64,000 bases of DNA from a virus: the IMG/VR virus record IMGVR_UViG_3300031111_000011, positions 1 through 64,000 of that record; one strand, 5' to 3'. The position numbers were made by a program, and so were the translations under genes. Each line of letters starts with the position of its first letter. The stretch's first letter is position 1. The notes under the pieces were generated by a model. That model saw only the letters and a list, made by a program, of their open reading frames with translations. It had not been told where the DNA came from and did no database searches. This document shows, one piece after another, positions 36,588 to 63,735 of the stretch.

Positions 36588-36997
36588 TACACCCCCTTCT
36601 TGAGCGCCATGAAGTCAGCGATCTTGCGGTAACCGAAAGCAGATCCTACGGCGATGCCGAGCATCCATTGGTACCACTGTGGGCAGGTAGCCAGGGCAGC
36701 AAACCCGACTGTGACCCACCCTGCTCCGGTTGGAAAGAAACAGAGGATGGCAGGAATCGAAAGGACAATGGTAAACCATTCATCCTTCCACCCGCTCTGG
36801 TTGATGGAGGTGTTCTCCCAGGCGATGTCCCCCTGCTGTTGGGTGAGCATCTTATTAATGGTAGCTTCGGTTTTCGCCTCAGTCACCTTGACCTTGGATT
36901 CAACCTCCACCTCTTTGATACGTTGCCGATGTCGGAACCAATCTGTGACGGGGGCCATCAGACCCCCGACCAGATCACCAAGGATCTTACCGACCAC
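36587..36997 (-). CDS. putative holin/membrane protein (136 aa, C-terminal TM helices)
   Basis: Hydrophobic segments FTIVLSIPAILCFF, WVTVGFAALATC, MLGIAVGSAFGY; last of the structural cluster. Confidence 0.5.
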   Translation of the reverse strand: MVGKILGDLVGGLMAPVTDWFRHRQRIKEVEVESKVKVTEAKTEATINKMLTQQQGDIAWENTSINQSGWKDEWFTIVLSIPAILCFFPTGAGWVTVGFAALATCPQWYQWMLGIAVGSAFGYRKIADFMALKKGV

Positions 36998-46448: not shown

Positions 46449-48368
46449 TTATTTCCCCATTATAATCCAGGCCACTTGCCCGTCTGTAGAAAGAGACGGG
46501 GAAGTACCAAGTACAACAGTTCCAGAAACACTCGGCAAAATAACTCGGTAATAATATGTCGGGGATGCAGGAGGAGATAGAAAGGAAGTTGTCGTTCCGT
46601 TACTCCAAGTAGAGCACCACGAACTGATTGTGATGTAAACCCTCATATGGGTAATAGCCGACGCTTGAGTTCCTGTATCAAAAGAAACCAAAAGCTGGTC
46701 CGGACCAAAAACCCCCGGCCCGTTAGTACCAGTGTTTGTGCCACTACCACAAGTGGTCCACGATGACCCATTGTTCAGAGAGTACTGAACATATGCCGAG
46801 TACGTGCAGTTGCGGGTTCTGTAGTAAAGCCATGTCGGGTGTGACCCATCAGGAGCCTCATATCGCCCGTAGACCATAAATACGAGATTCGTACCATAAA
46901 ATCTTCGGACATCAGAAATATGCACTGGATCATCGGCAGCAGCGCCGGAACTACTTGGCCCGTAGTACGTGCCAGATTGGGCAGAAGACCCCTCAACGAA
47001 TCTGTCTGTATCAGCGCTGTTCGGATAAACAGTTGATCCAAGTTCGAGAGTTGCTACTACGTCGAACTCCCACTTAGCGGGTGAACCGGCGCTGTAGCCA
47101 CTTTGTCTCTGAACATTCATCGGCTGGAGATTGAAAGTCTGGTCGTACCCGCTATACGTTTGATCGTAGACTGGCACGATCTTCGGCATGAGCATAATCT
47201 TCGGTTGCTCAATGAACAGGGTATCAGGTTGAACCGTATCCCCGTTGTCTGCTTCCCCATATTCAATACCAGTGACCATACCTTGCGTAGCATGGAGCCC
47301 AGTAGTGGTATCATAGTACTTCTGAGAAATTTGGCCCTCATCGATCAGGACATAGTTCTGACCCGAAATTCCTCCATTTGGGGCAACAATAATCCGTCCC
47401 TCAGTATCCCCATTATCGCTCGTTTCGATAATGACATTGCTGTCACCGAAGGTGGCTTTCCCTCCTTCAGAGAGGTTGATCTCGGCAGAGGCATTGAACT
47501 CATCACCAGTGAATGTTCCAGCCTTGACGTGTCGAGCCAGGATCGTGTCATCGACAATGAGATTCCCGTCAATGGCTACTGTAGGAGTCCCGTCAACATC
47601 ACCGGTCATGAGGATTCCAGCACGTTCCCAATACGCTGTGTCTGTGCCGGGAAGTTTAGGGTCAGCAGATCCATTGGCCTGGATACACCGGTACCGGCGA
47701 ACAGAGGTTCCGGTGGTCACCTTCACCAGATCCGACACGGAGTACTCATTCCCGCTGTTGTACTCACTTGGATCTGTCCCCTTCAGGATGTCCACAACAC
47801 CATCGATGGTTTCACCAATGGATTCGTCCCCCGGAATCACATACCCACCTTGAGAGGGTCTTGGGGTCCAGGGGCTGTACACACCGGAGTAAGCAATGGC
47901 CCGAATCCAGTAGTAGTGGTCGTTCGTGTAGTCACCAAAGGAGTGTTCGTAGGTGTTGGCTGGACCTGTGACAATCGCCACACGGGTGGCTGAAGTCACA
48001 CTGTCGGTAGTGTTCACCCATACTTCGATATGGCTAAAGTGGACGTCTGTTGGGTTAGTCCACGAGAGGTGGTTCTTCCACACACCCTTAGTTATGGAGA
48101 GATTGGTAGGAGAATTGATCGGAGAGGAGTCAGCAATGAGTGTGTCGTCCTGATCCTTAGTGAGTCCGAGTGAGGTGTAAGCTGAGGCTGCTTCGAGGTT
48201 ATCGTAGGTGACGAAGCGGTCCCCGCTTTCCCCACGGGTGCCTTCACGAGTCTCCACCACCTCCTTGAGTGCAAGGAGAAAGTTCTGGAGTTCGGGTGAG
48301 GCATCCGCAGGGACATCAGGAATTGGAGGGAGGTTAGACATGTGATAGCTCCACTGGAGACGCCGCAA
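46449..48368 (-). CDS. tail fibre/receptor-binding protein with fibronectin-III-like domain (639 aa)
   Basis: FN3-like VWKNHLSWTNPTDVHFSHIEVWVN; Gly/Ser/Thr-rich beta-rich C-terminus. Confidence 0.65.
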   Translation of the reverse strand: MRRLQWSYHMSNLPPIPDVPADASPELQNFLLALKEVVETREGTRGESGDRFVTYDNLEAASAYTSLGLTKDQDDTLIADSSPINSPTNLSITKGVWKNHLSWTNPTDVHFSHIEVWVNTTDSVTSATRVAIVTGPANTYEHSFGDYTNDHYYWIRAIAYSGVYSPWTPRPSQGGYVIPGDESIGETIDGVVDILKGTDPSEYNSGNEYSVSDLVKVTTGTSVRRYRCIQANGSADPKLPGTDTAYWERAGILMTGDVDGTPTVAIDGNLIVDDTILARHVKAGTFTGDEFNASAEINLSEGGKATFGDSNVIIETSDNGDTEGRIIVAPNGGISGQNYVLIDEGQISQKYYDTTTGLHATQGMVTGIEYGEADNGDTVQPDTLFIEQPKIMLMPKIVPVYDQTYSGYDQTFNLQPMNVQRQSGYSAGSPAKWEFDVVATLELGSTVYPNSADTDRFVEGSSAQSGTYYGPSSSGAAADDPVHISDVRRFYGTNLVFMVYGRYEAPDGSHPTWLYYRTRNCTYSAYVQYSLNNGSSWTTCGSGTNTGTNGPGVFGPDQLLVSFDTGTQASAITHMRVYITISSWCSTWSNGTTTSFLSPPASPTYYYRVILPSVSGTVVLGTSPSLSTDGQVAWIIMGK

Positions 48369-53992: not shown

Positions 53993-54241
53993 TTACAGAC
54001 CGAGTGGGTTGTCGATAGTCGGGGCAGATTTGTAGGCGGGATTCGAAGACCTTCGGATACTCTGAATGAGTTGCTTATGTTCTCTGATTGCGCCTTGATT
54101 TTTCATAACGTCTTCAGTAGACGCCGAATCGTTTGCCCTGCGAAGTTTTTCAATGCGGAAGTCAAGAAGCTTCATGAAGACCTGAAAACTTTCGGTCCCA
54201 CTATGCCTACTGACTTCCCGCATCAGTTGTCTCTCATCCAA
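53993..54241 (-). CDS. hypothetical small protein (82 aa)
   Basis: Fills the portal-scaffold gap; start overlaps portal stop by 8 nt. Confidence 0.35.
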   Translation of the reverse strand: MDERQLMREVSRHSGTESFQVFMKLLDFRIEKLRRANDSASTEDVMKNQGAIREHKQLIQSIRRSSNPAYKSAPTIDNPLGL

Positions 54242-56291
54242 CAGTCACCTCTGGGATTGCGCCCTGTTCAAGTTGCTCAGGTGGTAGCTGCTCCATGTGG
54301 GGAAGCCCAGGCCGCTCTGTTGACCCTTCGTCGTTAACATGGCCGCTTGATTTAGCCTTCATGAGTTCCAGTTCGCGCATGAACTGTTTTTCCTCCTCAG
54401 CAGCGGCAGCAGCCCTTTGCTGCTCATCAGCAACCTGATCCGGATTCTTGATGAGGTTCATCTCATCCAAGTCAAGTGCCTTGGCGATTTCTCGGAGGAT
54501 CGCATCACGATTCACGAACTGCATATCGATCTCGTTGTTCGTGAGGGCAAGGAACTGGTTAAGCTGTTCGGCTCGAACTTCTTTAGCAATCAGAGAGGCA
54601 GATCCCTCGGCATTAACGCTGAAGTCGCCCTTGATTTCCGGTTTCGGATTGAACTCCATGTTCCAGAAATACATGCTCTTGATGAAGGGCTTTGTGATCC
54701 CATCATCGAAGTTCTTGACCTGATCCTTAATGGTGATGTTGGCTGATCCCATCAGGAGGCTTAGGCCAGTAGCTGTCTTGCCAGCACCTCCGAGGTGCGC
54801 CTGATCTCCGTACATATAACGGGGAACAGTGGTAACCTCGTCAGCAGTCTTCAGGAAGAATTCCACCATGGTGAGAAATTCAGAGGTATGTGACGGAATC
54901 TGGTTGACATTGATTGCCTTGGCTGAGGCTTCCATGCCCTGGCCGTTACGTCTGAAAACTCTGAATGGGTAGATGTCTTGCGGATCTTCAGCCGAGTCCA
55001 GAAGGTCGATGTTGGCCTCGATAATAGGACCGGCAGAGATGGCAGCATTATCGAGCAGAGCACGAACACTGGCGTTGAACAGGCTCTGCGGATCACGCAT
55101 GATCCGGGGGATGCCTTCACCGAAAATGCTCGTCTCGTCCTTCTCGTAGTAGTAGGTGAAATATGGGAAAGTGACCCCTTCCAGGGGACTGATCACCGCC
55201 TTGATCACTACGTCACCGAGAAGCCACACGTTGGCAGCAACCTCCATACCGAGCCTTTCCTCATCAATCTCAACGCCGTAATCCTTGAGATCCTGAGTAC
55301 TTACGAACCCCCAAAACTCAAGGAGTTCATATCGGCCTTTGGCCCCCATCTGAGTAGCCGCCTTGCTCTCACCATCCTGGCTGAGGGTCCGGAGGTCACT
55401 CTCATGGTTCTTGTACTCGACATCGCCGTCGTGGTGTGCTCGAAGGTATGCTCGAATAGCGTCCCCTTTGAAGTCCTTCCGGCCAGCAAGCTGGTAAACC
55501 TGATGCCGGTTCTTGACGTGTCGCTGGAACACAAATCGGGCATCGTCAACCCGGTTCACAGACATGTCAGGGTAAAAGTCCCAAATAGGGACAAACTCAC
55601 AGTAAGGTGAGTAGGACGTCATGGACATTGTGGCCCAGGTACCACTCTCATGTGGAACCCATCGTTTCGCCACGTTCTGTTTAATCAGTGGGCCTTTGAG
55701 AATACCCGTTCCGTAAACATTCCCGGAATGGATGACATTCCGAATGATCTCTCGATACTTGATCTCAGCGAGTTGATCTTCGATCTCCTTTTGCATCGAA
55801 TCAGATCTACGTTTCGCTTCATCAAAAAGAACTTGCTTGATCTGGTGAGGAGATGGCTCCTGGCCGTTGATTTCGGTGAGTTGGGCGTAAATCTGTTCGA
55901 CCAAATCTGGGCTCAACTCCGGAAGCGGAGTCGGGGTAATCCCCCAGTTACGGTCCCCGTTCGCTGGAAAGAGTATGTCACACACCCTGGCACTGACTGT
56001 TTTGACCTTTGTGCGTGTGATGGAAAGATTCGCCTTCGACCGTTTTGGGTGCATTTTTGAGAGAATACCAGGGTCATACTGCCCCTTGTATTGGCGAAGA
56101 TCCTTGATCCACTCCTGTTCGATTTGACGACGATCTGATTCCACTTGATCGAAGAGCCCACGGATATACAGGCCGAGAGGGGACATATAGTCCGCATACA
56201 TCGCTTTCTTTTCAGTGAGTTCTGGACTTGCCTCTTCCTCTTTCACAGCAGCGACGTAGGTCTTGTCAAACATCTGCTTTTCATGTTCCAT
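54234..56291 (-). CDS. portal (head-tail connector) protein (685 aa)
   Basis: Size and position immediately upstream of scaffold-MCP; acidic helical protein. Confidence 0.6.
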   Translation of the reverse strand: MEHEKQMFDKTYVAAVKEEEASPELTEKKAMYADYMSPLGLYIRGLFDQVESDRRQIEQEWIKDLRQYKGQYDPGILSKMHPKRSKANLSITRTKVKTVSARVCDILFPANGDRNWGITPTPLPELSPDLVEQIYAQLTEINGQEPSPHQIKQVLFDEAKRRSDSMQKEIEDQLAEIKYREIIRNVIHSGNVYGTGILKGPLIKQNVAKRWVPHESGTWATMSMTSYSPYCEFVPIWDFYPDMSVNRVDDARFVFQRHVKNRHQVYQLAGRKDFKGDAIRAYLRAHHDGDVEYKNHESDLRTLSQDGESKAATQMGAKGRYELLEFWGFVSTQDLKDYGVEIDEERLGMEVAANVWLLGDVVIKAVISPLEGVTFPYFTYYYEKDETSIFGEGIPRIMRDPQSLFNASVRALLDNAAISAGPIIEANIDLLDSAEDPQDIYPFRVFRRNGQGMEASAKAINVNQIPSHTSEFLTMVEFFLKTADEVTTVPRYMYGDQAHLGGAGKTATGLSLLMGSANITIKDQVKNFDDGITKPFIKSMYFWNMEFNPKPEIKGDFSVNAEGSASLIAKEVRAEQLNQFLALTNNEIDMQFVNRDAILREIAKALDLDEMNLIKNPDQVADEQQRAAAAAEEEKQFMRELELMKAKSSGHVNDEGSTERPGLPHMEQLPPEQLEQGAIPEVTVG

Positions 56292-56626
56292 TAGACAACT
56301 TTGACCTTGTAGAAGTAGAAGACGTGCTTGGCCCCTGAGTCCAGAGTTACTTCAAAGAGAAGTGTGTTGCTGGTTCCCTTGTAAGTGTCTCCTGGATACT
56401 GAAATGTGACCGAAACTGCGTCAGTGTGGACAGTAACCGTGTCAATAATGTCTTCCGTAATCTCTGTAGTGAGATCATCCCCTGGTTTGACTTTCCCCGT
56501 GTAGCACTTCACGTCACAACTACTGAGAGCCGTTCCGTCTGGAAGAGAGTCACTGAAGTCAAACCGGAATGGACCCCACTCATCCGAAAAGTATCGGATC
56601 TCAATGGTGTCGTTAGGGAAATCCAT
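56291..56626 (-). CDS. hypothetical protein (111 aa)
   Basis: ATGA-type coupling. Confidence 0.5.
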   Translation of the reverse strand: MDFPNDTIEIRYFSDEWGPFRFDFSDSLPDGTALSSCDVKCYTGKVKPGDDLTTEITEDIIDTVTVHTDAVSVTFQYPGDTYKGTSNTLLFEVTLDSGAKHVFYFYKVKVV

Positions 56627-57096
56627 TATGCGTACTCTACGGTGATGCCAAAGGTGTCGTTGGCGAGGTTCGGAGCACCCGCAGTGACAGTCCGACGAAT
56701 CCAGACACGTTGAGCACCTGATGCCGCAATATCGCTGATAGAGAGCTTCGAACCACTAAGAGGATGGGAGAACGAAACTCCGGAAGGTGCTGATCCTTCA
56801 GCCCCAATAGTCTGGGTTGTGCTGTCCAGGCCGATATCAAACTGGGTGTAGGAACTGGTTGACTCTGTGTCGATCCAGATCTTAACCACCACAGCGGTGG
56901 CATCCCCGGCGTTGTAAAGGTCGATAGCCCGATACTCAACATCGCCAGCAATAGCCTCAGCGGGCTCCACGTTGTCGAACAGGTTGTTGAGAGCGGTTCC
57001 ACTTACCTGATTTGAACTCCCGACACCTCCGAGAGAGGCATCGGGGTCAGAGTTAGATGCACCACCAGTGAGCCGAAACTGGAGAGAAGCAGCCAT
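56626..57096 (-). CDS. virion structural protein (156 aa)
   Basis: MAASLQFRLTGGASNSDP...; Gly/Ser/Thr-rich beta protein coupled to the 978-aa gene. Confidence 0.5.
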   Translation of the reverse strand: MAASLQFRLTGGASNSDPDASLGGVGSSNQVSGTALNNLFDNVEPAEAIAGDVEYRAIDLYNAGDATAVVVKIWIDTESTSSYTQFDIGLDSTTQTIGAEGSAPSGVSFSHPLSGSKLSISDIAASGAQRVWIRRTVTAGAPNLANDTFGITVEYA

Positions 57097-57108: not shown

Positions 57109-60045
57109 TTAATTTGGAAATGGTGTCACGCACCCGAAGGTGAACGGGATACTCTTCCCTGGCCCGATGGCCGTGGGAAGAATCAGTCCGGTGTTCTGGA
57201 AGGTGACAGGTTGTGATTCGAAACCGGCAGCAAGAGCCTCAGCTACCCGTTCGAGTTGAAGGACATTTGGTGGATTCACCAGGAACTGCTTCGAGATCGT
57301 GGAAACAATCCCTACCGCATTCGGATAAATGTTCGAAAAGATTTTGCTATTCGAGATCAACTGGAGCCAGAGCGGGATGTGGTAAGCAAAGTCCCTCGTG
57401 ATCTGGTTCAGTAGATGAAGAGCGAAATCAGAATCCACCTCTGTGAGGATGTGAGAGGCGATCTGGTTTGCGTCTACCCGGAGGATATGGGACGCACCAG
57501 GGATGCTTTGTGACTCCAGAATATGAGCCCCTGAGAGCCCTGTGGTAGCCCTCAGCAGATGAGCCGCCGAATCCATTGCTCCACTGATGAGAATATGGCT
57601 ATCAAACGACTTGGACCCGTCCACCAGGAGGTGTACCGATCCGCTCATCTGAGCAGCAGCCAAAATATGGGCAGCAGCCGAAAGGAGTGAGTTGTACCGG
57701 TCAAAAACCTGTGCGGCAAAGTCTTGTGAAACTTGATTCAGGATATGCGAAGCACCATCAATTGATCCACCCACCAGAAGGTGGTTGGCAATGTCCCTGG
57801 ACACCCCATTCAGAACGTGAGCAGCACCGTCAAAACTCTCACCAGCCATAATATGTGCTGCAAGGTCCAGATAGCGGTATTGGGTAGAAAGCTCAAAATT
57901 GGCAGTGTAGCTTCGATTCTGGTAAACACTCGTTGCAGTGAGTGGGTTGCTCGTTGTAGTAGCGTACCCTGTCCAGTTGACAAAGGCATAGCCACTGTTC
58001 GGGACAGCCGTGACAGCAGTGGAGTTGCCACCGTAAGAAACGGTTTGACTGGTGGTCCCGCTTAGTGTCCCACCTGTTCCAGCAGAAAAGGTCACATTAT
58101 AACTGGGAAACGTAGCAGTGACACTAAGGTACAGTTGGTTCGCAGTGCCATCTGGACCGTAGAAAATCGAGACAGGTTTAGGGGTTGAGGTCGGGGGCGA
58201 ATTAACCGCATCGTGGTAATCCCTGAGACAAAGCTTGGTGTCCCCGGTCTTGTTAATGTGGGATCGTCCAGCAGCGTTAAAAGTGATCGTTTTCCAAACA
58301 TTCGCCGTGGTACCGGATGCTACTGTCCCAAAAATAGTTGACCCGAAACTATTGTAGTCACTGGTTGTAAGTGACGAACTCTGTGTACCTGCGTAGCAAT
58401 ATACAGTAGAGCCTGTGGTTACTGCCGAGTCTCCTTGATTCGTGTGTGTCTTTGCCTTGAAAGAAACCGCAGTAATCGTAGCAGCACTTAAGGCCGATGT
58501 ATCGTGACGTGTGAAAGCTCGGACAATTTGGTACTTAGTACCAGCGTACGTTGACTTACAAGAGATATTGGTTGCGCTATCGACAACATACCCACCAGTA
58601 CTCCTGGCGACTCCCCAACTTGAATCCCCCAACATAGTATTACTAATTGTGCCAGCACCAGTGAGTTCCCCGTAGTAGGTGTAAGCATCAATGTATGAAG
58701 TGTTACGCAGAACTCCTGAAGTAATAGTCTCAGAAGTTGGGTATTTCACATACTCAAGAGTCCCATCGGGATTGTCACAAAGAGTATGTAGAACTGTTGC
58801 TGTAAGGGGAGTAAACTCCGCGTCAATAAGAATTGGTTGGCGAATGGTAAACTTAACGCTTCCATCCATGTCAGTGATAATGTACCTGCCGAATTCATCC
58901 GGTTGGTAATACTCCCCTGTAACTGACAGGGAATTGGCCTTCTTAACCCGCGTAATAATATGATCCTGAACAACTTGAACAAATTGCTCATAGGTTGTAT
59001 CCAGGTAACCAACCTTGCTAATATCCCACCATCGGTTTGGGTCTTTGTATACCTTCGGGATTTCACCAGTGAGGTCTTTGGTGTCAATCGCAGCACCGAT
59101 CCAACCGGGGCCACCTACGTACCCACCGATCAACTTACCGTCGCAAATGTAACCATACCCCTCAGTGGTAACGGGCTTACCGGCCAGAATCGATAGCGCC
59201 TCACAAAAAATTCGATTGATACCTCGCTTCATTGGAGCGTCTTTGATAAGAATATGGATCTTACCATCATTCATGTAGGAGGTACACGCACCAACTTGAG
59301 TCTGGTCTACAAAGTAGCCCTCTGGAAGTGTTTCGCAGATATCATCTTCAGTCCCTTTTGTTACGGACTTCCCAACCTGTTGACCAAAGCTAATTGAAAA
59401 GCGAGACTCTGCCATACGAGCAAAGACAACATTGTACCACTCAGCCGTGGTAACAATCCCGTGGGCAGACACGTCTGGATCGATAAAAGCCTCCCGAAGC
59501 ACCTGTGTGCCGGATACTTTTGGATTCTGGACTTTCAAACCCTTAAGGTGAATCTTGTATGACACCTTAAAGTCTTCAATAGGCCGGTCAACCTTAACCA
59601 TTTGGCGGGTGGAGACACGGCTGTTTTGTACAACACAATTACCGAGGTCAATAGTACATGGGTTTACTTGTGTGTTCTTTGTGAGATCTACCGGAACGTC
59701 TTGACCGTCAAACTCAATGCCCTCAATCGAAAACTCAAGTTGTTCGGTCCCAAGCTTCTGGTTTTCATCAGGTCGAAGTCCAAGGTACTTCGTTGGAGTG
59801 CCATCCGTTCGAATACCAGCACTAACAATGTTCTTATCACGTAGAAGAATCCTACCGACAGTGCTCTCAGTTTGGGCAACTTCCTCTAAAATGATTGGTC
59901 TGAGAGTCCCGTTTTCATCCTGGTAGTACTCTGGAGAACTCACGTCAAAGCACCGGTACTCCGCAAAGCCATCGTCATACGGAAGTACATCAGTAAATCT
60001 ATTTACAGGAGCATGTGAAGGAAGAAGAGGGGTTCTCTCGGTCAT
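57109..60045 (-). CDS. large repeat-containing virion protein (978 aa): beta-rich N-terminal region + InlB-B-repeat-like domain + 13 tandem 12-aa A-H-[IL]-L repeats
   Basis: Listeria/Bacteroides-repeat-like NVTFSAGTGGTLSG...SGYAFVNWTGY; then (x7-[AS]-H-[ILV]-L)x13; sits between TerL and portal. Confidence 0.7.
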   Translation of the reverse strand: MTERTPLLPSHAPVNRFTDVLPYDDGFAEYRCFDVSSPEYYQDENGTLRPIILEEVAQTESTVGRILLRDKNIVSAGIRTDGTPTKYLGLRPDENQKLGTEQLEFSIEGIEFDGQDVPVDLTKNTQVNPCTIDLGNCVVQNSRVSTRQMVKVDRPIEDFKVSYKIHLKGLKVQNPKVSGTQVLREAFIDPDVSAHGIVTTAEWYNVVFARMAESRFSISFGQQVGKSVTKGTEDDICETLPEGYFVDQTQVGACTSYMNDGKIHILIKDAPMKRGINRIFCEALSILAGKPVTTEGYGYICDGKLIGGYVGGPGWIGAAIDTKDLTGEIPKVYKDPNRWWDISKVGYLDTTYEQFVQVVQDHIITRVKKANSLSVTGEYYQPDEFGRYIITDMDGSVKFTIRQPILIDAEFTPLTATVLHTLCDNPDGTLEYVKYPTSETITSGVLRNTSYIDAYTYYGELTGAGTISNTMLGDSSWGVARSTGGYVVDSATNISCKSTYAGTKYQIVRAFTRHDTSALSAATITAVSFKAKTHTNQGDSAVTTGSTVYCYAGTQSSSLTTSDYNSFGSTIFGTVASGTTANVWKTITFNAAGRSHINKTGDTKLCLRDYHDAVNSPPTSTPKPVSIFYGPDGTANQLYLSVTATFPSYNVTFSAGTGGTLSGTTSQTVSYGGNSTAVTAVPNSGYAFVNWTGYATTTSNPLTATSVYQNRSYTANFELSTQYRYLDLAAHIMAGESFDGAAHVLNGVSRDIANHLLVGGSIDGASHILNQVSQDFAAQVFDRYNSLLSAAAHILAAAQMSGSVHLLVDGSKSFDSHILISGAMDSAAHLLRATTGLSGAHILESQSIPGASHILRVDANQIASHILTEVDSDFALHLLNQITRDFAYHIPLWLQLISNSKIFSNIYPNAVGIVSTISKQFLVNPPNVLQLERVAEALAAGFESQPVTFQNTGLILPTAIGPGKSIPFTFGCVTPFPN
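57379..57849 (-). repeat. in-frame tandem repeat (about 13 x 36 bp) encoding the A-H-I/L-L dodecapeptide array
   Basis: Periodic motifs atatgggc/atgtgagc in the DNA; protein period 12 aa. Confidence 0.55.
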
Positions 60046-60047
60046 GG

Positions 60048-61646
60048 TTAGTATCCTGCTCCGCTATCAGCGGGGGTGTTGTATCTGCTGTGACTGGACG
60101 GTCGGGCTTTGCGCTTCATTGTCCGTCCCTCACTCAATTCGAGACAAGCATACTGAAGGGCATCGTGAACGTGGGAATAGATGTTCTTCTCTGGCTTTTC
60201 CTTGTACTTCTCACCGAGACGTACACTCTGGACCACCTTTGCAAATTTGTACTCGCTGATGAATCCCTTACGAAGTGTGTTGGCAGTGAGTTGAGAAAGC
60301 TGGAATCCACTCTGCTTACGAAGAAAGAAGTTCACCGCTTCACGACGAGCCAGTTCGTTGTTTGTCTTGGCGAGTCGAGTGGGTAGTCCCGCCTGGACCA
60401 GAATGTCCATGGCAGACCGCTTGTCATTCTGCGACCTGTTCCGGGCAGCAGGGTCAATGACAAGCTCAAAGTTGAACCGCATGTACTTGTTCTTGATCAG
60501 GGGCCAAAGGTGATCTTCTGCAAACTCCTGAATAGAGGTGTTCTCTGTGACAATCTCGTCAAGGATTATCAGAGATCCTGTCGGAGTGAGTTGGCAGAAA
60601 GCCGCAGCAGGAGTGAGCCCAACGTCCACACCGATGGTGATTGGCAGACCTTCAAGGGGTTTGATTGGGCGGTCGGTCGCGTGGTACTTGTCTTGGTAAG
60701 CCTTGTAGACAGGTCTTCCCTGTCGCAGAGCGCCATAGTTATTCAGGATGAAAATATTCACCCAGTCGGGGTCAGCACCCGCTACCTGATCCACGTAATA
60801 GTCTGGATCAAGATGTTTGAACCAGACGTCAATCAAATCCCCAGTGAGTGTTCCGGATGGGTTCCTTCGGAGTGGAGTCCCGTCCTGGGTGTAGGCTGCT
60901 GCCTGGGCTGGAGGACAAAGCTCAAACAAACCACGGTCTACCGCTTCCCAGTGTCCGAGGTTGTCAGCTTCAGGATTGATCCGATAAAAGTTGTTCTCGG
61001 CATCAGCTACGATCCCATCAGCCTCACTGCACATGAGCAGTGCGGGTGGTTGGTGATAGAAGCTGTGGCGATTGGGCTGCACCTCTTCGGCAAGTCTGTA
61101 CAGCCAGTGATCCACGTCTACAGAGTTGTAGTCGCAGATAATGAAGGGATCGATGGCACCCCCGTCCATAGATGCAGGAAACCGATTGACACGGGATTTG
61201 AGCATCTGGTGGACTCCAGGAGGGATTTCAGCCGCCTCGTTGATGTGGCTTGCGGTCAACTCCAGGGACTGTAGCTTATTGACATCTTCCTCCCGGTCGA
61301 GAGCGATGAAGTTCAACTCCATGTTGACCCTGGTTCCGTCCGGAAGAGGCAACGCAACAGTCCCACGGATGGGCGCACCCATCACGATTTTGATCATGTC
61401 CTTGAACCACTGTTTCCAGGACTTCACGACTGTCGTTGCAAGAGCCGGGTAAGACGCACGAATGATCGCATATCGACTATTCCGAACCCCATCCGAGTCG
61501 GGTACCTGCTTAAGAGCATTCATGAACAGATGAAGGATACATCCACTGGACTTCCCAGATCCCACCGGGCCTCTAACGAAGAGGAACCTGTTGGGATCAC
61601 GATGGACTTTCATGAACGTATTGTTTGCGACATAGTTGATTTGCAT
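60048..61646 (-). CDS. terL: terminase large subunit (532 aa)
   Basis: Walker A VRGPVGSGKSSG near N-terminus; nuclease-domain acidic residues C-terminal. Confidence 0.85.
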   Translation of the reverse strand: MQINYVANNTFMKVHRDPNRFLFVRGPVGSGKSSGCILHLFMNALKQVPDSDGVRNSRYAIIRASYPALATTVVKSWKQWFKDMIKIVMGAPIRGTVALPLPDGTRVNMELNFIALDREEDVNKLQSLELTASHINEAAEIPPGVHQMLKSRVNRFPASMDGGAIDPFIICDYNSVDVDHWLYRLAEEVQPNRHSFYHQPPALLMCSEADGIVADAENNFYRINPEADNLGHWEAVDRGLFELCPPAQAAAYTQDGTPLRRNPSGTLTGDLIDVWFKHLDPDYYVDQVAGADPDWVNIFILNNYGALRQGRPVYKAYQDKYHATDRPIKPLEGLPITIGVDVGLTPAAAFCQLTPTGSLIILDEIVTENTSIQEFAEDHLWPLIKNKYMRFNFELVIDPAARNRSQNDKRSAMDILVQAGLPTRLAKTNNELARREAVNFFLRKQSGFQLSQLTANTLRKGFISEYKFAKVVQSVRLGEKYKEKPEKNIYSHVHDALQYACLELSEGRTMKRKARPSSHSRYNTPADSGAGY

Positions 61647-61648
61647 AG

Positions 61649-62065
61649 TTACTTAGTTCCGGAGAGTGGAATAACCTTCCCTGCGATAGGAGGAGCAGCC
61701 TTTGGTTGCTCTTGGGTAGGATTGCCAAGCATGAGATTGAGAACAGTTGTGTCCCCAGAACCCAGATTGACTTCGGTGGATTTGAGACGAGGAAAGCAGT
61801 ACCCCATCAGATCTTTCTCGATTGAGCGTCTCCACTTGATCTGATCTTCCAAACCTTCGAGTTCACCTGCCATCATGTAAGTGAAAAGAACCTGATCAAT
61901 CAGATCGAACTGATGGTCTTCCTTCAGTTGCTTCAGGAGAACTTTGGCCCGTTTCTGCTTATTATAGATCTGAGGCTTACGAGGTTTGCGTTTCGCTGCT
62001 TTCTTCTTCGGGGCTTTTTTCTTCGGAGGGGATTGACCTTCAACGGTCCACTCTTGGTCAGACAT
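61649..62065 (-). CDS. terS: putative terminase small subunit (139 aa from Met16)
   Basis: Basic KKKAPKKKAAKRKPRKP DNA-binding-like region; precedes terL with 2-nt spacing; start trimmed to avoid tRNA-Gln. Confidence 0.5.
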   Translation of the reverse strand: MSDQEWTVEGQSPPKKKAPKKKAAKRKPRKPQIYNKQKRAKVLLKQLKEDHQFDLIDQVLFTYMMAGELEGLEDQIKWRRSIEKDLMGYCFPRLKSTEVNLGSGDTTVLNLMLGNPTQEQPKAAPPIAGKVIPLSGTK

Positions 62066-62076
62066 GAAGTTCCTTT

Positions 62077-62151
62077 TGGAAGGGGCAGAAGGAATCGAAC
62101 CTTCCTGCACAGGTTCAAAGCCTGTTGGTTAAGCCGCTCACCCATACCCCT
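62077..62151 (-). tRNA. tRNA-Gln(TTG)
   Basis: 7-bp acceptor AGGGGTA/TGCCCCT, T-arm GGTTCGATTCC, anticodon loop CTTTGAA, CCA encoded. Confidence 0.7.
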
Positions 62152-62157
62152 ATAAGC

Positions 62158-62232
62158 TGGTCAGGGATGCTGGAATCGAACCAGCCGCCCCAAGCTTCCA
62201 AAGCCCAGGAGACTCCTTGCCGTTATCCCTGA
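62158..62232 (-). tRNA. tRNA-like gene, anticodon uncertain (possibly Pro-TGG); irregular stems
   Basis: Good acceptor TCAGGGA/TCCCTGA and T-arm GCTGG-TTCGATT-CCAGC, but D and anticodon arms pair only with several G-U wobbles; possible pseudo-tRNA. Confidence 0.4.
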
Positions 62233-62243
62233 TGATTTGCAGA

Positions 62244-62318
62244 TGGCTCCAGAACCTGGACTCGAACCAGGATTTCAACGGTTAACAGCCGCGCGTGTTA
62301 CCTTGACACTATTCTGGA
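62244..62318 (-). tRNA. tRNA-Asn(GTT)
   Basis: Acceptor TCCAGAA/TTCTGGA, D-arm GTGT-CAAGGTA-ACAC, anticodon loop CTGTTAA, T-arm CCTGG-TTCGAGT-CCAGG, CCA. Confidence 0.7.
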
Positions 62319-62329
62319 GTGAGGAGAGA

Positions 62330-62406
62330 TGGTTGGAGCGAGAGGATTCGAACCCCCACTTAACGGGTTAAAAGCCCGTTGTGCTAACCGTTGACACTAC
62401 GCTCCA
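62330..62406 (-). tRNA. tRNA-Lys(TTT)
   Basis: Acceptor TGGAGCG/CGCTCCA, anticodon arm ACGGG-CTTTTAA-CCCGT, T-arm GGGGG-TTCGAAT-CCTCT. Confidence 0.75.
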
Positions 62407-62416
62407 ACAAAAAAGA

Positions 62417-62492
62417 TGGTCGCACCACCAGGACTCAAACCTGGGTCTGTCGCTTATCAGGCAACTGTTCTAATCTGTTGAACTATGGTGCA
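62417..62492 (-). tRNA. tRNA-Ile(GAT)
   Basis: D-arm GTTC...GAAC, anticodon arm GTTGC-CTGATAA-GCGAC, T-arm CCAGG-TTTGAGT-CCTGG. Confidence 0.75.
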
Positions 62493-62495
62493 ATG

Positions 62496-62569
62496 TGGCA
62501 CCCCGCTAAGGAATCGAACCCTACCAATGCACCGGGTTGGAACCGGGCCGCACCCATGTGCTGCGAGGT
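62496..62569 (-). tRNA. atypical tRNA (possible Trp-CCA) with truncated D-arm
   Basis: Acceptor ACCTCGC/GCGGGGT (1 G-U), T-arm TAGGG-TTCGATT-CCTTA, candidate anticodon loop TTCCAAC; D-region only CAC-ATGG-GTG. Confidence 0.4.
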
Positions 62570-62583
62570 GTGAGATGTAGAAA

Positions 62584-62659
62584 TGGGGTGAGCGGAGGGA
62601 ATCGAACCCTCTACAACAGGGCCACGACCTGTCGGCTCAACCTTTTGCTCTTCGCCCAC
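62584..62659 (-). tRNA. atypical tRNA (possible His-GTG) with short D-arm
   Basis: Acceptor GTGGGCG/CGCTCAC, T-arm GAGGG-TTCGATT-CCCTC, candidate anticodon arm ACAGG-TCGTGGC-CCTGT (C33); a 6-bp hairpin sits in the downstream spacer. Confidence 0.4.
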
Positions 62660-62696
62660 AGTTGGACCACTCACTAAGAGTGGCTCACCCCACGAA

Positions 62697-62796
62697 ATGG
62701 ACGATGACCGTGGGACTCGAACCCACGCTCCCAAGAGGTGTCTCCCGGCGATCAACCCGTAACTGCCCCCCAGTGTGTTATCCAGCTACACCAGAC
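62697..62796 (-). tRNA. ~100-nt tRNA-like gene with ~25-nt internal insertion (isotype undetermined)
   Basis: Acceptor CGATGTC/GTCATCG (6/7), family D-arm GTGT-AGCTGGATA-ACAC, T-arm GTGGG-TTCGAGT-CCCAC and encoded CCA, but the anticodon/variable region is ~25 nt too long. Confidence 0.4.
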
Positions 62797-62808
62797 ATCG
62801 ATATTTGT

Positions 62809-62883
62809 TGGTACTCCCTGATGGAATCGAACCACCCTCTACTGCTTGTAAGGCAGTCGTTATAGCCACTCTACTAAGGGAGT
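62809..62883 (-). tRNA. tRNA-Val(TAC)
   Basis: Acceptor ACTCCCT/AGGGAGT, anticodon arm ACTGC-CTTACAA-GCAGT, T-arm GGTGG-TTCGATT-CCATC, CCA. Confidence 0.75.
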
Positions 62884-62954
62884 ATGTGCCGGTGGCAGTG
62901 ATTAACGACCTTTGCTCTTATCATCGGGACGGTCATGCGAGGACCGGCAGAAAA

Positions 62955-63028
62955 TGGACTCCCTGAGAGGATTCGAACCTCCATCCAACGGTTCGTAGCC
63001 GAATGCTCATCCGTTGAGCTACAGGGAG
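62955..63028 (-). tRNA. tRNA-Arg(ACG)
   Basis: Acceptor CTCCCTG/CAGGGAG, D-arm GCTC-AACGGAT-GAGC, anticodon loop CTACGAA (3-bp stem + 2 mismatches), T-arm GGAGG-TTCGAAT-CCTCT. Confidence 0.6.
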
Positions 63029-63075
63029 TGAGTTGGTTTTGCCCTAAAAATAGGGGCGTTTTTGTGGCAAAACTA

Positions 63076-63151
63076 TGGTCTGCCTGGGAGGAGTCGAACC
63101 CCCTACTCTGGGGGTAGAAACCCCAAGCTCTGTCCGATGAGCTACAGGCAG
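63076..63151 (-). tRNA. tRNA-Arg(TCT)
   Basis: Acceptor CTGCCTG/CAGGCAG, D-arm GCTC-ATCGGACA-GAGC, anticodon arm TGGGG-TTTCTAC-CCCCA. Confidence 0.75.
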
Positions 63152-63156
63152 TGAAG

Positions 63157-63231
63157 TGGAGCCTCGTGGAGGACTTGAACCCCCGTCCCAAGCTTACAAG
63201 GCACGTATTCTACCAGTTGAACTAACGAGGC
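63157..63231 (-). tRNA. tRNA-Thr(TGT)
   Basis: Acceptor GCCTCGT/ACGAGGC, anticodon loop CTTGTAA, T-arm GGGGG-TTCAAGT-CCTCC, CCA. Confidence 0.7.
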
Positions 63232-63238
63232 AAAGAAG

Positions 63239-63312
63239 TGGAGCGGTCACCAGGAATCGAACCTGGATCTGCCATCGGGGAGACAGCTATGCTACCATTA
63301 CACCATGACTGC
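63239..63312 (-). tRNA. tRNA-Gly(CCC) (tentative)
   Basis: Acceptor GCAGTCA/TGACCGC (1 mismatch), D-arm TG-GTGT-AATGGTA-GCAT, anticodon arm GCTGT-CTCCCCG-ATGGC, T-arm CCAGG-TTCGATT-CCTGG. Confidence 0.55.
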
Positions 63313-63323
63313 TCAAAAATTGA

Positions 63324-63400
63324 TGGAGCGGATACAGGGACTCGAACCCTGACCATCTGGTTGGAAGCCAGATATGCTTGCCGTTGAACACCATACCCGC
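63324..63400 (-). tRNA. tRNA-Gly(TCC)
   Basis: Acceptor GCGGGTA/TATCCGC, anticodon arm TCTGG-CTTCCAA-CCAGA (perfect), T-arm CAGGG-TTCGAGT-CCCTG. Confidence 0.75.
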
Positions 63401-63404
63401 TCAG

Positions 63405-63488
63405 TGAGCCAAGGGGAGACTCGAACTCCCAAACCTTCCAGATCAGGGCCATGGTGACCTGGATATGCACCCTATACACCAGCTTGGC
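63405..63488 (-). tRNA. atypical tRNA-like gene with 17-nt anticodon-region loop (10-nt insertion)
   Basis: Acceptor GCCAAGC/CTTGGC, family D-arm TG-GTGT-ATAGGGT-GCAT, T-arm GGGAG-TTCGAGT-CTCCC; anticodon stem TCCAG/CTGGA closes a 17-nt loop containing CCATGGTGACC. Confidence 0.4.
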
Positions 63489-63496
63489 GTGTTCGA

Positions 63497-63572
63497 TGGT
63501 GGACCAAGAGGGACTCGAACCCTCAGCGTCCTCCTTGCAAGGGAGGAGTGTTCCCGATTACACCACCGGCCC
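63497..63572 (-). tRNA. tRNA-Ala(TGC)
   Basis: Acceptor GGGCCGG/TTGGTCC with G3:U70 Ala identity pair; anticodon arm CCTCC-CTTGCAA-GGAGG; T-arm GAGGG-TTCGAGT-CCCTC; CCA. Confidence 0.75.
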
Positions 63573-63661
63573 ACAGGACAGATTTCCTTTTTGACGTCTT
63601 GGGCCAGGAATACTGTCTAAGAACCCAATGGAACCACAGGGGTATCTCCCCATGGCGGTTT

Positions 63662-63735
63662 TGGCGGTCCATACGGGACTCGAACCCGTCTTGCATGATC
63701 GACAGTCACGCACCTTCCCTGATGGCTAATGGACC
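63662..63735 (-). tRNA. tRNA-Asp(GTC)
   Basis: Acceptor GGTCCAT/ATGGACC, anticodon arm CGTGA-CTGTCGA-TCATG, T-arm ACGGG-TTCGAGT-CCCGT, CCA. Confidence 0.65.

What the first reader, a model, noticed from the sequence alone, without database searches (positions are those of the whole stretch)
57109..60045. 978-aa virion protein with a 13x dodecapeptide A-H-[IL]-L array, inserted between terminase and portal
The gene order TerS-TerL-[978 aa]-[156 aa]-[111 aa]-portal is unusual; portal normally abuts terminase.
- The protein combines a beta-rich N-terminal region, an InlB-B-repeat-like domain (GYxFxxW), and 13 tandem 12-residue repeats with invariant His and Leu (residues about 733-889; DNA 57379-57849).
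- A regularly spaced His ladder suggests a metal-binding solenoid, or an adhesin/depolymerase-like module.
- It could be a laterally acquired receptor-binding or host-interaction cassette.
Basis: seen in the sequence. Interest (0 to 1): 0.7.

Follow-up and report, generated by a model that had tools for sequence, protein, structure and literature searches.

The report
Mosaic phage adhesin with histidine-ladder repeat
The 978-residue gene is real and most likely encodes a sugar-binding phage fibre whose 12-residue histidine repeat is an unusual version of a widespread, unnamed phage repeat that travels with two small partner genes.

Summary
ORF 57109-60045 (-) encodes 978 aa with an InlB B-repeat domain and 14 in-phase 12-residue units, 13 of them carrying His. 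Lag-12 identity is 0.30 against 0.08 in shuffles. The units are only 43% alike as DNA, so this is not an assembly artefact.

The array is not unique in kind. It is a divergent member of an unnamed phage repeat, x-D-T-[AS]-W-[KR]-[IV]-[LF]-x4. That repeat sits directly beside a highly conserved 156-aa protein in 28 of 60 loci, often followed by a homologue of the 111-aa protein. The window's order, 978 then 156 then 111, is therefore the canonical cassette.

In about 30 related phage contigs TerL abuts the portal, and where enough upstream sequence is held the cassette lies upstream of TerL. Its position here is a lineage-specific rearrangement.

Residues 1-645 form a separate, lower-GC module shared with terminal tail genes of unrelated phages. 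Its predicted folds resemble carbohydrate-binding domains plus a lipoate/biotin-ligase-like fold.

His occupies the position that is usually Lys or Arg. Two relatives also carry W-H-I-L or W-H-I-Q units.

The array structure is unresolved (AlphaFold pLDDT 38), and metal binding is untested. My best reading is an accessory adhesin with variable N-terminal lectin-like heads on a conserved repeat, p156 and p111 chassis.

The parts
57109..60045 (-). 978-aa ORF (p978), a mosaic fibre/adhesin-like protein
   Evidence: ORF list. The identical 978-aa protein is in the public collection on a 67.1-kb contig. Its ATG lies 2 nt after the TerL stop codon.
59506..60045 (-). aa 1-180: conserved beta-rich N-terminal segment of the 645-aa module
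58891..59493 (-). aa 185-385: variable alpha/beta insert with a predicted biotin/lipoate-ligase-like fold
58111..58890 (-). aa 386-645: conserved beta-rich segment; its C-terminal ~190 aa look like a DNRLRE/CBM96-type carbohydrate-binding sandwich
57889..58101 (-). aa 649-719: InlB B-repeat (Flg_new_2) beta domain
   Evidence: Pfam PF18998, E = 2.9e-11, 43.6 bits against a cut-off of 23.6. 41-55% identity to B-repeats of P0008 and P0010.
57361..57870 (-). aa 726-895: array of 14 dodecapeptide units, consensus x-D-x-A-[AS]-H-[IL]-L-x-x-x-[S]; 13 units carry His
   Evidence: Unit list and consensus and periodicity statistics. A PSSM from 221 Trp-type units scores the array +38.9 bits in register. 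Other registers score -212 to -372, and shuffles -276 +/- 29. Weak Pfam MgtE_N hit at E = 0.011.
57109..57360 (-). aa 896-978 plus stop: C-terminal tail of unknown fold
   Evidence: No Pfam match. No detectable similarity to the post-array tails of relatives. Low AlphaFold confidence.
56626..57096 (-). p156: highly conserved 156-aa partner protein (PHROG 13135, function unknown)
   Evidence: AAGGAG ribosome-binding site, with the ATG 12 nt after the p978 stop. 711 homologues, up to 72% identical. It lies next to a 12-mer array protein in 28 of 60 loci whose p156 is at least 45% identical. No PDB relative.
56291..56626 (-). p111: 111-aa third gene of the cassette, function unknown
   Evidence: Its start overlaps the p156 stop and its stop overlaps the portal start. 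Homologues directly follow p156 in unrelated loci L095, L124, L126, L127, L135 and L144. In this phage's relatives they lie just upstream of TerL.
60048..61646 (-). Flank: large terminase subunit
   Evidence: PHROG 2 and 979. tblastn to annotated TerL genes.
54234..56291 (-). Flank: portal protein (SU10 / HMO-2011 type)
   Evidence: Pfam SU10_portal at E = 1.3e-15 and PHROG 332/1216. tblastn to portals of Rollin, phiM6, HMO-2011 and CRP phages.

Best explanation
p978 is a mosaic accessory fibre or adhesin of an HMO-2011/SU10-type podovirus. It is the first gene of a conserved three-gene cassette: array protein, then p156, then p111.

Shown:
- The C-terminal 14-unit dodecapeptide array belongs to a widespread, unnamed phage repeat, x-D-T-[AS]-W-[KR]-[IV]-[LF]-x4.
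- That repeat is genomically coupled to p156, and often to p111, across unrelated phages and prophages.
- The protein's N-terminal 645 aa are a separate module. The same module is found as a stand-alone ~650-aa gene at the end of tail modules in other phages. It is joined to the array through one InlB B-repeat domain.

Inferred:
- The array, p156 and p111 stay constant while the N-terminal regions are swapped even among close relatives (41 aa, CBM4/9-like, LamG-like, beta-helix, or this module). So the array end, with p156 and p111, is the chassis that assembles or docks on the particle. The N-terminal lectin-like domains are the distal glycan-binding head.
- The array is probably a rod of one short helix per 12 residues, like the MgtE-N / FliG helical repeats. 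Positions 4, 7, 8 and 11 would be buried and position 6 exposed.
- Position 6 forms a uniform ladder within an array: Lys/Arg in most, Asp in some, His in this lineage. The window's His ladder would then be a titratable version of the usual cationic stripe. This could give pH-dependent or metal-dependent multivalent contact with anionic surface polymers.
For: Repeat reality and register.

Coupling to p156:
- Array proteins sit upstream of p156 in L009, L010, L087 and L088.
- The same holds in this phage's relatives L023, L028, L029, L034 and L128.
- Systematically, 28 of 60 loci with a p156 at least 45% identical have an adjacent array. The figure is 3 of 44 for distant p156 and 11 of 874 for background ORFs.
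- p111 follows p156 in unrelated loci.

His at the same position in relatives: L128 has DIDWHIL and L029/L184 has TAWHIQN.

N-terminal module:
- Homologues lie directly after gpJ (L003), next to a DUF2341/F5_F8/LamG protein (L001/L002), and as the last large tail gene of a prophage (L008).
- Fold matches are to CBMs and sugar-enzyme beta-sandwiches, with a sub-threshold DNRLRE_dom hit in P0005.
- GC3 is 0.44 for this module against 0.54-0.56 for the array, tail, p156 and p111, and 0.59-0.60 for TerL, portal and MCP.

Variable N-termini on a constant array.

Helical reading:
- Pfam MgtE_N hits family arrays above threshold, at 48 and 40.5 bits, and the window's array weakly.
- The best, non-significant, PDB profile hits are FliG and a designed helical repeat.
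- The unit's hydrophobic moment is highest at 100 degrees.
- The AlphaFold model places 9-10-residue helices in phase with the units.

Operon: tight coupling from TerL through to the portal.
Against: - There are no virion proteomics, so attachment to the particle is inferred from context only.
- The AlphaFold model of the array is unusable (pLDDT 38). The helical solenoid is therefore supported only by sequence pattern and by a Pfam cross-hit that could be driven by repeat composition. PDB profile hits are not significant (E = 0.2-0.6).
- Low monomer confidence is also what an intertwined trimeric fibre would give.
- p156 and p111 have no known function. A small gene after a fibre gene is equally typical of a chaperone for a distal C-terminal tip.
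- p156 also occurs without an adjacent array, in KVP40, an N4-like Alteromonas phage, L091 and L092.
- The window's C-terminal tail is unlike the relatives' tails.
- The window's array lacks the otherwise 95%-conserved Trp, so it may not behave like the rest of the family.
Confidence: 0.5

Rival explanations
1. Classical fibre polarity. The N-terminal region, or another protein, holds the fibre, and the C-terminal array plus tail is the distal receptor-binding part. p156, and perhaps p111, would be its dedicated assembly chaperone or tip adhesin, as with T4 gp37/gp38, lambda Stf/Tfa or Mu S/U. The Trp plus Lys/Arg (here His) ladder would itself be the multivalent ligand-binding surface, comparable in logic to choline-binding repeats.
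For: - A fibre gene followed by one or two small conserved genes is the usual fibre-plus-chaperone layout (established knowledge). The array and p156 are adjacent in 28 of 60 loci.
- Some proteins are almost only array (N-terminus 25-45 aa: L135, L165, L181, L029), so the array must carry a function of its own.
- Ladders of aromatic plus basic residues are typical ligand-binding features (inference).
Against: - The N-termini differ completely among close relatives of this phage, so they cannot be a lineage-specific anchor.
- p156 is far more conserved (up to 72% identity) than the arrays. That is unlike tip-specific chaperones, which co-vary with the tip.
- The N-terminal domains are lectin-, CBM- or beta-helix-like, which are normally distal.
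- p156 has no match to known tail-fibre assembly families.
Confidence: 0.25
2. One reading: a trimeric, metal-binding fibre shaft. Three chains intertwine, and each layer of three His coordinates a metal ion on the threefold axis. That gives 13 metal sites, analogous to the His-metal sites of the T4 gp37 needle, T4 gp12 and P2 gpV.
For: - 13 His occur at strict 12-residue spacing, conserved despite 43% DNA identity between units and mixed codons.
- His recurs at the same position in two relatives.
- Very low AlphaFold monomer confidence is typical of intertwined fibres.
- Phage fibres are commonly trimers, and some bind Fe or Zn through His (established knowledge).
Against: - In 221 units of the wider family this position is Lys/Arg/Asp/Ala/Asn, that is polar, variable and therefore probably solvent-exposed rather than axial.
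- There is no HxH motif.
- The hydrophobic pattern and the Pfam cross-hit favour short helices.
- No metal-site prediction or multimer model could be run.
Confidence: 0.1
3. The protein is not a particle component. It would be a late-expressed secreted, cell-surface or lysis-associated protein, for example one that binds envelope polysaccharide during release or blocks superinfection.
For: - It lies in the packaging/head gene cluster rather than the tail module, and this phage has a separate tail-fibre-like gene at 46449-48368.
- In L087 a muramidase lies inside the cassette, and in L010 lysis-type genes are nearby.
Against: - There is no signal peptide or membrane segment evident in the sequence (direct reading).
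- It is tightly translationally coupled between TerL and the portal.
- Homologues of both modules sit after gpJ or among tail genes.
Confidence: 0.07
4. The repeat is a sequencing or assembly artefact, or a chance pattern.
For: None found.
Against: - There is no DNA-level tandem repeat, and units are only 43% identical as DNA.
- The ORF is intact.
- The identical protein occurs in three independent sources.
- The periodicity lies about 10 SD above shuffles.
- Homologous arrays occur in many other contigs.
Confidence: 0.01

Closest known systems
Unnamed Trp-ladder dodecapeptide arrays of phage and prophage proteins (for example P0014-P0018, P0021, P0031 and the ORFs upstream of p156 in L087, L088, L023, L028, L034, L128)
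   Same: - Same 12-residue period and same conserved positions: D2, A/S4, I/V7, L/F8.
- Same C-terminal location in the protein.
- Same neighbour, p156, directly downstream, often followed by p111.
- The N-terminal partners are sugar-binding-type domains.
   Different: - The window's array has Ala or Ser where 95% of family units have Trp.
- It has His where most have Lys or Arg.
- Its post-array tail is unrelated to theirs.
- Only P0014 is detectable from it by an exhaustive sequence search, at E = 4.7e-4.
MgtE intracellular N domain / FliG helical repeats (Pfam PF03448)
   Same: A helix-turn pattern of about 12 residues, 'x-D-x-x-A-A-x-I-L-x-x-L'. The Pfam model hits family arrays at 48 and 40.5 bits and the window's array at 16.6 bits. 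FliG is the top, non-significant, PDB profile hit.
   Different: The biological context is entirely different: a cytosolic Mg2+ sensor or flagellar rotor against a phage structural cassette. There are no CBS or transporter domains. The arrays are much longer (14-29 units) and carry a Trp or His ladder. The window's score is below the Pfam threshold, and the structure is not confirmed.
Tail fibre plus accessory-gene cassettes (T4 gp37/gp38, lambda Stf/Tfa, Mu S/U, P2 H/G)
   Same: A long modular fibre gene is followed by small conserved genes. The pieces are exchanged between unrelated phages, and homologues sit after gpJ or at the end of tail modules.
   Different: There is no sequence or family match. 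Variability lies at the N-terminus rather than the C-terminus. The accessory protein is more conserved than the fibre end. Here the cassette is located between TerL and the portal.
His-metal sites of phage fibres and spikes (T4 gp37 needle, T4 gp12, P2 gpV / phi92 gp138)
   Same: Regularly placed His residues in a phage fibre-like protein (recalled knowledge of those structures).
   Different: Those use HxH motifs in trimeric beta structures. Here there is one His per 12 residues, at a position that is variable and polar in the wider family.
DNRLRE / CBM96-type carbohydrate-binding modules (PDB 8wab, 7vbo)
   Different: The window protein itself gives no profile hit. Identity is 8-15%, and no ligand is known.
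Rhizobium phage RHph_N3_13 and N4-like phages: extra genes between TerL and portal
   Same: In RHph_N3_13 a large putative host-interaction protein (a 707-aa BNR-repeat protein) lies between TerL and the portal. An N4-like Alteromonas phage has a p156 homologue, then a 107-aa gene, then the portal.
   Different: The proteins are different. The BNR protein is unrelated to p978, and no 12-mer array was noted there.

Membership tests
InlB B-repeat / Flg_new_2 (PF18998) | Profile match above the Pfam gathering score | tested here: met
   aa 649-719, E = 2.9e-11, 43.6 bits against 23.6, covering profile positions 1-71 of 73.
Trp-type dodecapeptide array cassette (unnamed; defined here) | 12-residue period with conserved D2, A/S4, I/V7, L/F8 | tested here: met
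   The consensus is given. The PSSM from 221 independent units scores +38.9 bits in register, with all other registers at -212 or below and shuffles at -276 +/- 29.
Trp-type dodecapeptide array cassette (unnamed; defined here) | Aromatic residue (Trp in 95% of units) at position 5 | tested here: not met
   The window has A6, S4, N1, V1, L1, Y1 at position 5. It is therefore filed as a divergent variant.
Trp-type dodecapeptide array cassette (unnamed; defined here) | p156 homologue encoded directly next to the array protein, with a p111 homologue after it | tested here: met
   In the window, p978 stops 12 nt before p156, and p156 overlaps p111. The same arrangement is seen in L095, L124, L126, L127, L135 and L144.
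MgtE_N (PF03448) | Profile match above the gathering score (25.9 bits) | tested here: not met
   The window's array scores 16.6 bits, E = 0.011. Relatives' arrays pass, with P0014 at 48.2 bits and the L087 ORF at 40.5 bits.
MgtE_N (PF03448) | Right-handed superhelix of short alpha-helices | tested here: inconclusive
   The AlphaFold model shows in-phase helices, but its pLDDT is 38. PDB profile hits to FliG are at E = 0.2-0.4.
MgtE_N (PF03448) | Context of a Mg2+ transporter (CBS pair and membrane domain) | tested here: not met
   No such domains are present in p978.
DNRLRE domain / CBM96 (NF033679) | Profile match above the NCBIfam cut-off (34 bits) | tested here: not met
   There is no hit for p978. 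Homologue P0005 scores 21.9 bits, E = 1.4e-4, over profile positions 12-164 of 164.
DNRLRE domain / CBM96 (NF033679) | Beta-sandwich fold of the solved modules | tested here: inconclusive
   [not shown]
Biotin/lipoate protein ligase (BPL_LplA_LipB) | Sequence-profile membership | tested here: not met
   There is no Pfam hit for the whole protein or for aa 180-390 alone, at E up to 10.
Biotin/lipoate protein ligase (BPL_LplA_LipB) | Catalytic-domain fold | tested here: inconclusive
   [not shown]
HxH metal-binding phage fibre tips (T4 gp37 type) | HxH motifs repeated along a trimeric beta needle | tested here: not met
   There is a single His per unit and no HxH. The oligomeric state is not testable with these tools.
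Tail fibre assembly proteins (for example lambda Tfa / Caudo_TAP), for p156 | Profile match to a known assembly-protein family | tested here: not met
   There is no Pfam hit, the PHROG 13135 match is to a family of unknown function, and there is no PDB relative.
Virion structural protein | Physical presence in purified particles | not testable with these tools
   Only genomic context is available.

The most novel reading that the evidence does not exclude
The array, p156 and p111 cassette is a previously undescribed phage adhesion device, widespread across bacterial phyla. Its fibre would be a new kind of one-helix-per-12-residue rod carrying a uniform charge ladder, mounted on the particle by its C-terminal end with interchangeable lectin heads at the N-terminus. 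In this lineage the ladder has become 13 histidines, which would make attachment switchable by pH or by transition metals.
Probability: 0.25. Interest if true: 0.7.

Novelty: new variant of a known kind. Interest (0 to 1): 0.55.

Why it matters
Phage host-recognition proteins are the main lever for predicting and engineering host range. A repeat module that recurs in many phages and prophages of many phyla has no Pfam or PHROG family of its own. It travels with two conserved partner genes of unknown function, so it marks a gap in the catalogue of fibre building blocks.

If the constant array end is the anchor and the N-terminal lectin domains are the exchangeable heads, the cassette would be a natural plug-in scaffold for retargeting. 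The histidine version would offer a built-in pH or metal switch.

If instead it is an ordinary fibre shaft with a chaperone, the result is still useful. It gives an annotation for several hundred 'hypothetical' proteins.

Tried and rejected
- tblastn of p978 against 50,697 phage records found no match. PHROGs found no family for p978 or for any array protein.
- An exhaustive HMMER search with aa 720-978 found only one real relative, P0014. The other three hits are unrelated low-complexity or other repeats.
- AlphaFold of aa 720-978 with a 7-sequence alignment gave pLDDT 38, so no fold search was attempted on it.
- Two alignments that included the InlB domain were discarded, because MAFFT slid repeat units onto that domain.
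- I looked for similarity between the C-terminal tail (aa 885-978) and the post-array tails of relatives, by blastp and by a profile. Nothing was significant.
- Pfam on isolated sub-domains found nothing. PDB sequence searches with the N-terminal profile, p156, the p156 profile and p111 found nothing significant.
- A search for related loci with the single p156 sequence found none. It worked only with an alignment.
- Literature searches found nothing relevant for 'dodecapeptide repeat' plus phage, '12-residue repeat' plus 'tail fiber', or 'DNRLRE' plus phage.
- The afdb50 fold library was unavailable.
- PHROG annotation of the neighbours of distant p156 homologues in L155 and L165 was uninformative.
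- Considered and rejected: assembly artefact; depolymerase, as no catalytic domain was found; continuous coiled coil. The last is an inference: a 12-residue repeat shifts the hydrophobic face by 120 degrees per unit, which supercoiling cannot absorb.


Full report

ORF 57109..60045 on the minus strand encodes 978 aa. The identical protein is on record from a 67,101-bp contig in three sources. It is flanked upstream by the large terminase at 60048-61646 (PHROG 2; tblastn to annotated TerL genes). Downstream lie ORFs of 156 aa and 111 aa, then the portal at 54234-56291 (Pfam SU10_portal).

The genes are tightly packed. The p978 ATG lies 2 nt after the TerL stop. The p156 ATG lies 12 nt after the p978 stop, behind an AAGGAG site. 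The p156/p111 and p111/portal junctions overlap. No convincing internal promoter or terminator stands out.

The 'TerS' label for 61649-62110 is positional only. That ORF has no family hit, and its 5' end overlaps tRNA-Gln.

**2. The repeat**

His occurs at residues 731, 743, 755, 767, then Gln at 779, then His at 793, 805, 817, 829, 841, 853, 865, 877 and 889. This is 14 units, 13 with His, with a 2-residue insertion after the degenerate unit. The consensus is x-D-x-A-[AS]-H-[IL]-L-x-x-x-[S]. Leu at position 8 is 11 of 14, so it is not invariant.

Lag-12 residue identity is 0.304, against 0.082 +/- 0.021 in shuffles. No other long ORF of the window has a comparable repeat.

TRF finds no DNA repeat. 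Units are on average 43% identical as DNA, and His codons are 8 CAT and 5 CAC. The array is therefore old and held by selection, not an artefact.

**3. The rest of the protein**

Pfam finds one domain, Flg_new_2 (InlB B-repeat), at aa 649-719 (E = 2.9e-11).

Residues 1 to about 645 are homologous, at 30-35% identity, to stand-alone proteins of about 650-690 aa (P0002-P0007, P0009). The alignment shows three parts:
- a conserved first segment, aa 1-180;
- a variable insert, about aa 185-385, absent from P0007 and P0009;
- a conserved second half, aa 386-645.

These homologues sit directly after a gpJ-like central tail fibre (L003), next to a DUF2341/F5_F8/LamG protein (L001, L002), or as the last large tail gene of a prophage near its integrase (L008).

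Homologue P0005 aligns to almost the whole NCBIfam DNRLRE_dom profile, below the cut-off. No glycosidase or lyase catalytic domain was found.

This module has GC3 of 0.44. The array, tail, p156 and p111 have 0.54-0.56, and TerL, portal and MCP have 0.59-0.60. That points to a more recent acquisition of this part.

**4. What the array is related to**

An exhaustive search of 1.84 billion representatives with aa 720-978 found one real relative, P0014 (E = 4.7e-4). P0014 is a LamG protein ending in 12-residue units 'x-D-T-A-W-x-I-L-x4', encoded after gpJ in a sipho-type contig.

Its family shows the same array behind different N-terminal domains: LamG, pectate-lyase-like beta-helix and others (P0015-P0018, P0021, P0031).

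A position matrix built from 221 such units, none from the window, scores the window's 14 units at +38.9 bits in the proposed register. Without positions 5 and 6 the score is +99.8 bits. The other eleven registers score -212 to -372, and within-unit shuffles score -276 +/- 29.

So the window's array is a divergent member. It has Ala or Ser where the family has Trp (95%), and His where the family has mostly Lys (34%) or Arg (24%).

**5. The cassette**

tblastn of the window's proteins against all fetched loci showed p156 homologues immediately downstream of the array proteins P0014 and P0021. The P0021 neighbour is 56% identical over the full length. p156 belongs to a large, strongly conserved family of at least 711 proteins, up to 72% identical and all unnamed (PHROG 13135, function unknown).

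I fetched 104 loci with a p156 profile: 29 from named genomes or MAGs of many phyla and 75 viral contigs. I then scanned the adjacent ORFs:
- 28 of the 60 loci whose p156 is at least 45% identical to the window's have an adjacent array of four or more in-phase units, mostly upstream;
- 3 of 44 loci with a more distant p156 have one;
- 11 of 874 background ORFs have one.

Arrays reach 29 units, and some proteins are almost only array. p111 homologues directly follow p156 in unrelated loci L095, L124, L126, L127, L135 and L144. The window's order of array protein, p156, p111 is thus the canonical form of a mobile three-gene cassette.

**6. Synteny in this phage's own lineage**

The portal places the phage with the HMO-2011 / phiM6 / Rollin / CRP podoviruses. 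In HMO-2011 and Rollin, TerL abuts the portal.

Thirty-eight viral contigs have portals 47-60% identical, and about 30 of them hold both genes. In every one of those, TerL abuts the portal. Wherever about 400 bases or more upstream of TerL are held, p111 lies just upstream of it. Where still more is held, p156 lies 3.4-4.4 kb further upstream.

In L023, L028, L029 and L034 the gene directly upstream of p156 carries a 12-mer array behind unrelated N-termini: CBM4/9-like, a 590-aa region, only 41 aa, and 265 aa. A fibre of 892-1372 aa lies between p156 and p111.

The closest relative by TerL (L128, 55%) has units 'DIDWHIL', and L029/L184 has 'TAWHIQN'. His is at exactly the window's position. 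The His ladder is therefore a trait of this lineage, and the window's array has additionally lost the Trp.

Only p156, p111 and TerL of the L023 block have homologues in the window.

The conclusion is that the cassette is resident in the lineage, but here it lies downstream rather than upstream of TerL. The large intervening fibre is missing, and the array protein has gained a 720-aa N-terminal extension.

Extra genes between TerL and the portal are not unique. Rhizobium phage RHph_N3_13 has a BNR-repeat protein there. An N4-like Alteromonas phage has a p156 homologue, then a 107-aa gene, then the portal. KVP40 has a p156 homologue between gp15 and gp16.

**7. Structure of the array**

AlphaFold with a 7-sequence alignment failed (pLDDT 38), so the fold is unresolved. 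Four pieces of indirect evidence favour one short helix per unit:
- Pfam MgtE_N, a superhelix of short helices, hits family arrays above threshold (48 and 40.5 bits) and the window's array weakly (16.6 bits).
- The best PDB profile hits are FliG and a designed helical repeat, though they are not significant.
- The unit's hydrophobic moment peaks at 100 degrees.
- The low-confidence model places 9-10-residue helices in phase with the units.

In such a helix, positions 4, 7, 8 and 11 form the buried face and position 6 points outward. This agrees with position 6 being polar and variable between arrays. Within an array position 6 tends to be uniform: Lys/Arg, Asp, Asn or His. That suggests a charge ladder.

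Low monomer confidence is also what an intertwined trimer would give, so the beta/trimer alternative stays open.

**8. Most likely mechanism**

This section is inference, with shown and inferred steps separated as in the explanation above. The array, p156 and p111 are conserved while the N-termini are swapped even among close relatives. So the C-terminal array end, together with p156 and p111, is most likely the part that assembles or docks on the particle. The N-terminal CBM-like domains are most likely the distal glycan-binding head.

The His ladder would be a titratable replacement of the usual Lys/Arg stripe. An acidic residue four positions earlier (position 2) is common in both types.

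The rivals are:
- classical polarity, with the array as receptor-binding tip and p156 as its chaperone;
- a trimeric (His)3 metal-binding shaft;
- a role outside the particle.

Where on the particle the protein sits (capsid, neck or tail) cannot be told. The cassette lies in the head and packaging cluster here, but after gpJ in other phages.

**9. Novelty**

The kind of thing, a modular phage fibre or adhesin with accessory genes, is known. The 12-residue array, its coupling to p156 and p111, and the His variant are not described in Pfam, PHROGs, the PDB or the searchable literature. I rate it a new variant of a known kind, of moderate interest.

Noticed in passing
window 62077-63735: A cluster of 12 tRNA genes on the minus strand lies directly upstream of the putative TerS/TerL genes. 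tRNA-Gln (62077-62151) overlaps the 5' end of ORF 61649-62110, so that ORF probably starts further in. The relative L128 has tRNA-like sequence between p111 and TerL.
   Followed up: partly
window 36987-43694 (-): A 2235-aa ORF at the end of the structural module carries Pfam LPD38 (large polyvalent protein associated domain 38, E = 2e-23) and a weak DUF7178 hit. It is probably a giant virion or ejected protein. An unrelated phage carrying the same cassette (L088) has a 4037-aa polyvalent protein with InPase, GGDEF, ddrB-ParB and LPD1 domains just upstream.
   Followed up: no
[not shown]
   Followed up: partly
L087-L198 arrays (for example L135, L165, L181, L034, L029): Within one array the residue after the Trp is nearly uniform: K/R, D, N, A/S or H. 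It differs between arrays, as if each array carries its own charge ladder. Several arrays also show a stronger 24-residue than 12-residue period (L087, L009, L010).
   Followed up: partly
L012 (KVP40 215075-215623) and L011 (Alteromonas phage PT15-A5 13650-14452): p156 homologues occur without an obvious array. In the T4-like Vibrio phage KVP40 one lies between gp15 and gp16. In an N4-like phage one is followed by a 107-aa gene and then the portal. This hints at a neck- or portal-proximal role for p156.
   Followed up: partly
L023 3484-6381, L028 2562-6680, L034 3780-6458: Relatives carry a fibre gene of 892-1372 aa between p156 and p111 that has no counterpart in the window. The L023 copy has a His-rich stretch (HDHDG...HAESHDIASHSD...LHYHS) and matches tail-fibre PHROGs.
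   Followed up: no
P0007 (L007 1326-3365), P0019, P0024: Other homologues of the N-terminal module, or of the LamG heads, end in quite different tandem repeats. P0007 has units of about 20 residues, 'L-S-G-x-G', with a weak hit to the autotransporter head domain DUF2807. P0019 and P0024 have 'A-x-D-G-x-S' type units. The C-terminal repeat rods therefore appear interchangeable.
   Followed up: no
L005 (Rhizobium phage RHph_N3_13, 61414-63537): A 707-aa BNR-repeat (sialidase-like) protein lies between TerL and the portal in a distant relative. The TerL/portal junction may therefore be a recurrent slot for host-interaction genes in this phage group.
   Followed up: no
L184 481-756: The window's 153-aa ORF upstream of TerL has a homologue (30% identity) about 5 kb upstream of the cassette in a relative. 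If it is the small terminase, then in the relatives the cassette lies between the two terminase genes.
   Followed up: no
L095-L123: p156 homologues occur in genomes or MAGs of very diverse lineages, presumably in prophages or as phage contigs binned with them. These include Syntrophobacteraceae, Thiodiazotropha, Sedimenticola, Thauera, Serratia, Ignavibacteriae, Bacteroidota, Phycisphaerales, Chloroflexia, Thermoleophilia, Patescibacteria and one 'archaeon' bin. The closest (66%) are from Syntrophobacteraceae and Deltaproteobacteria MAGs, a weak hint about the host.
   Followed up: no
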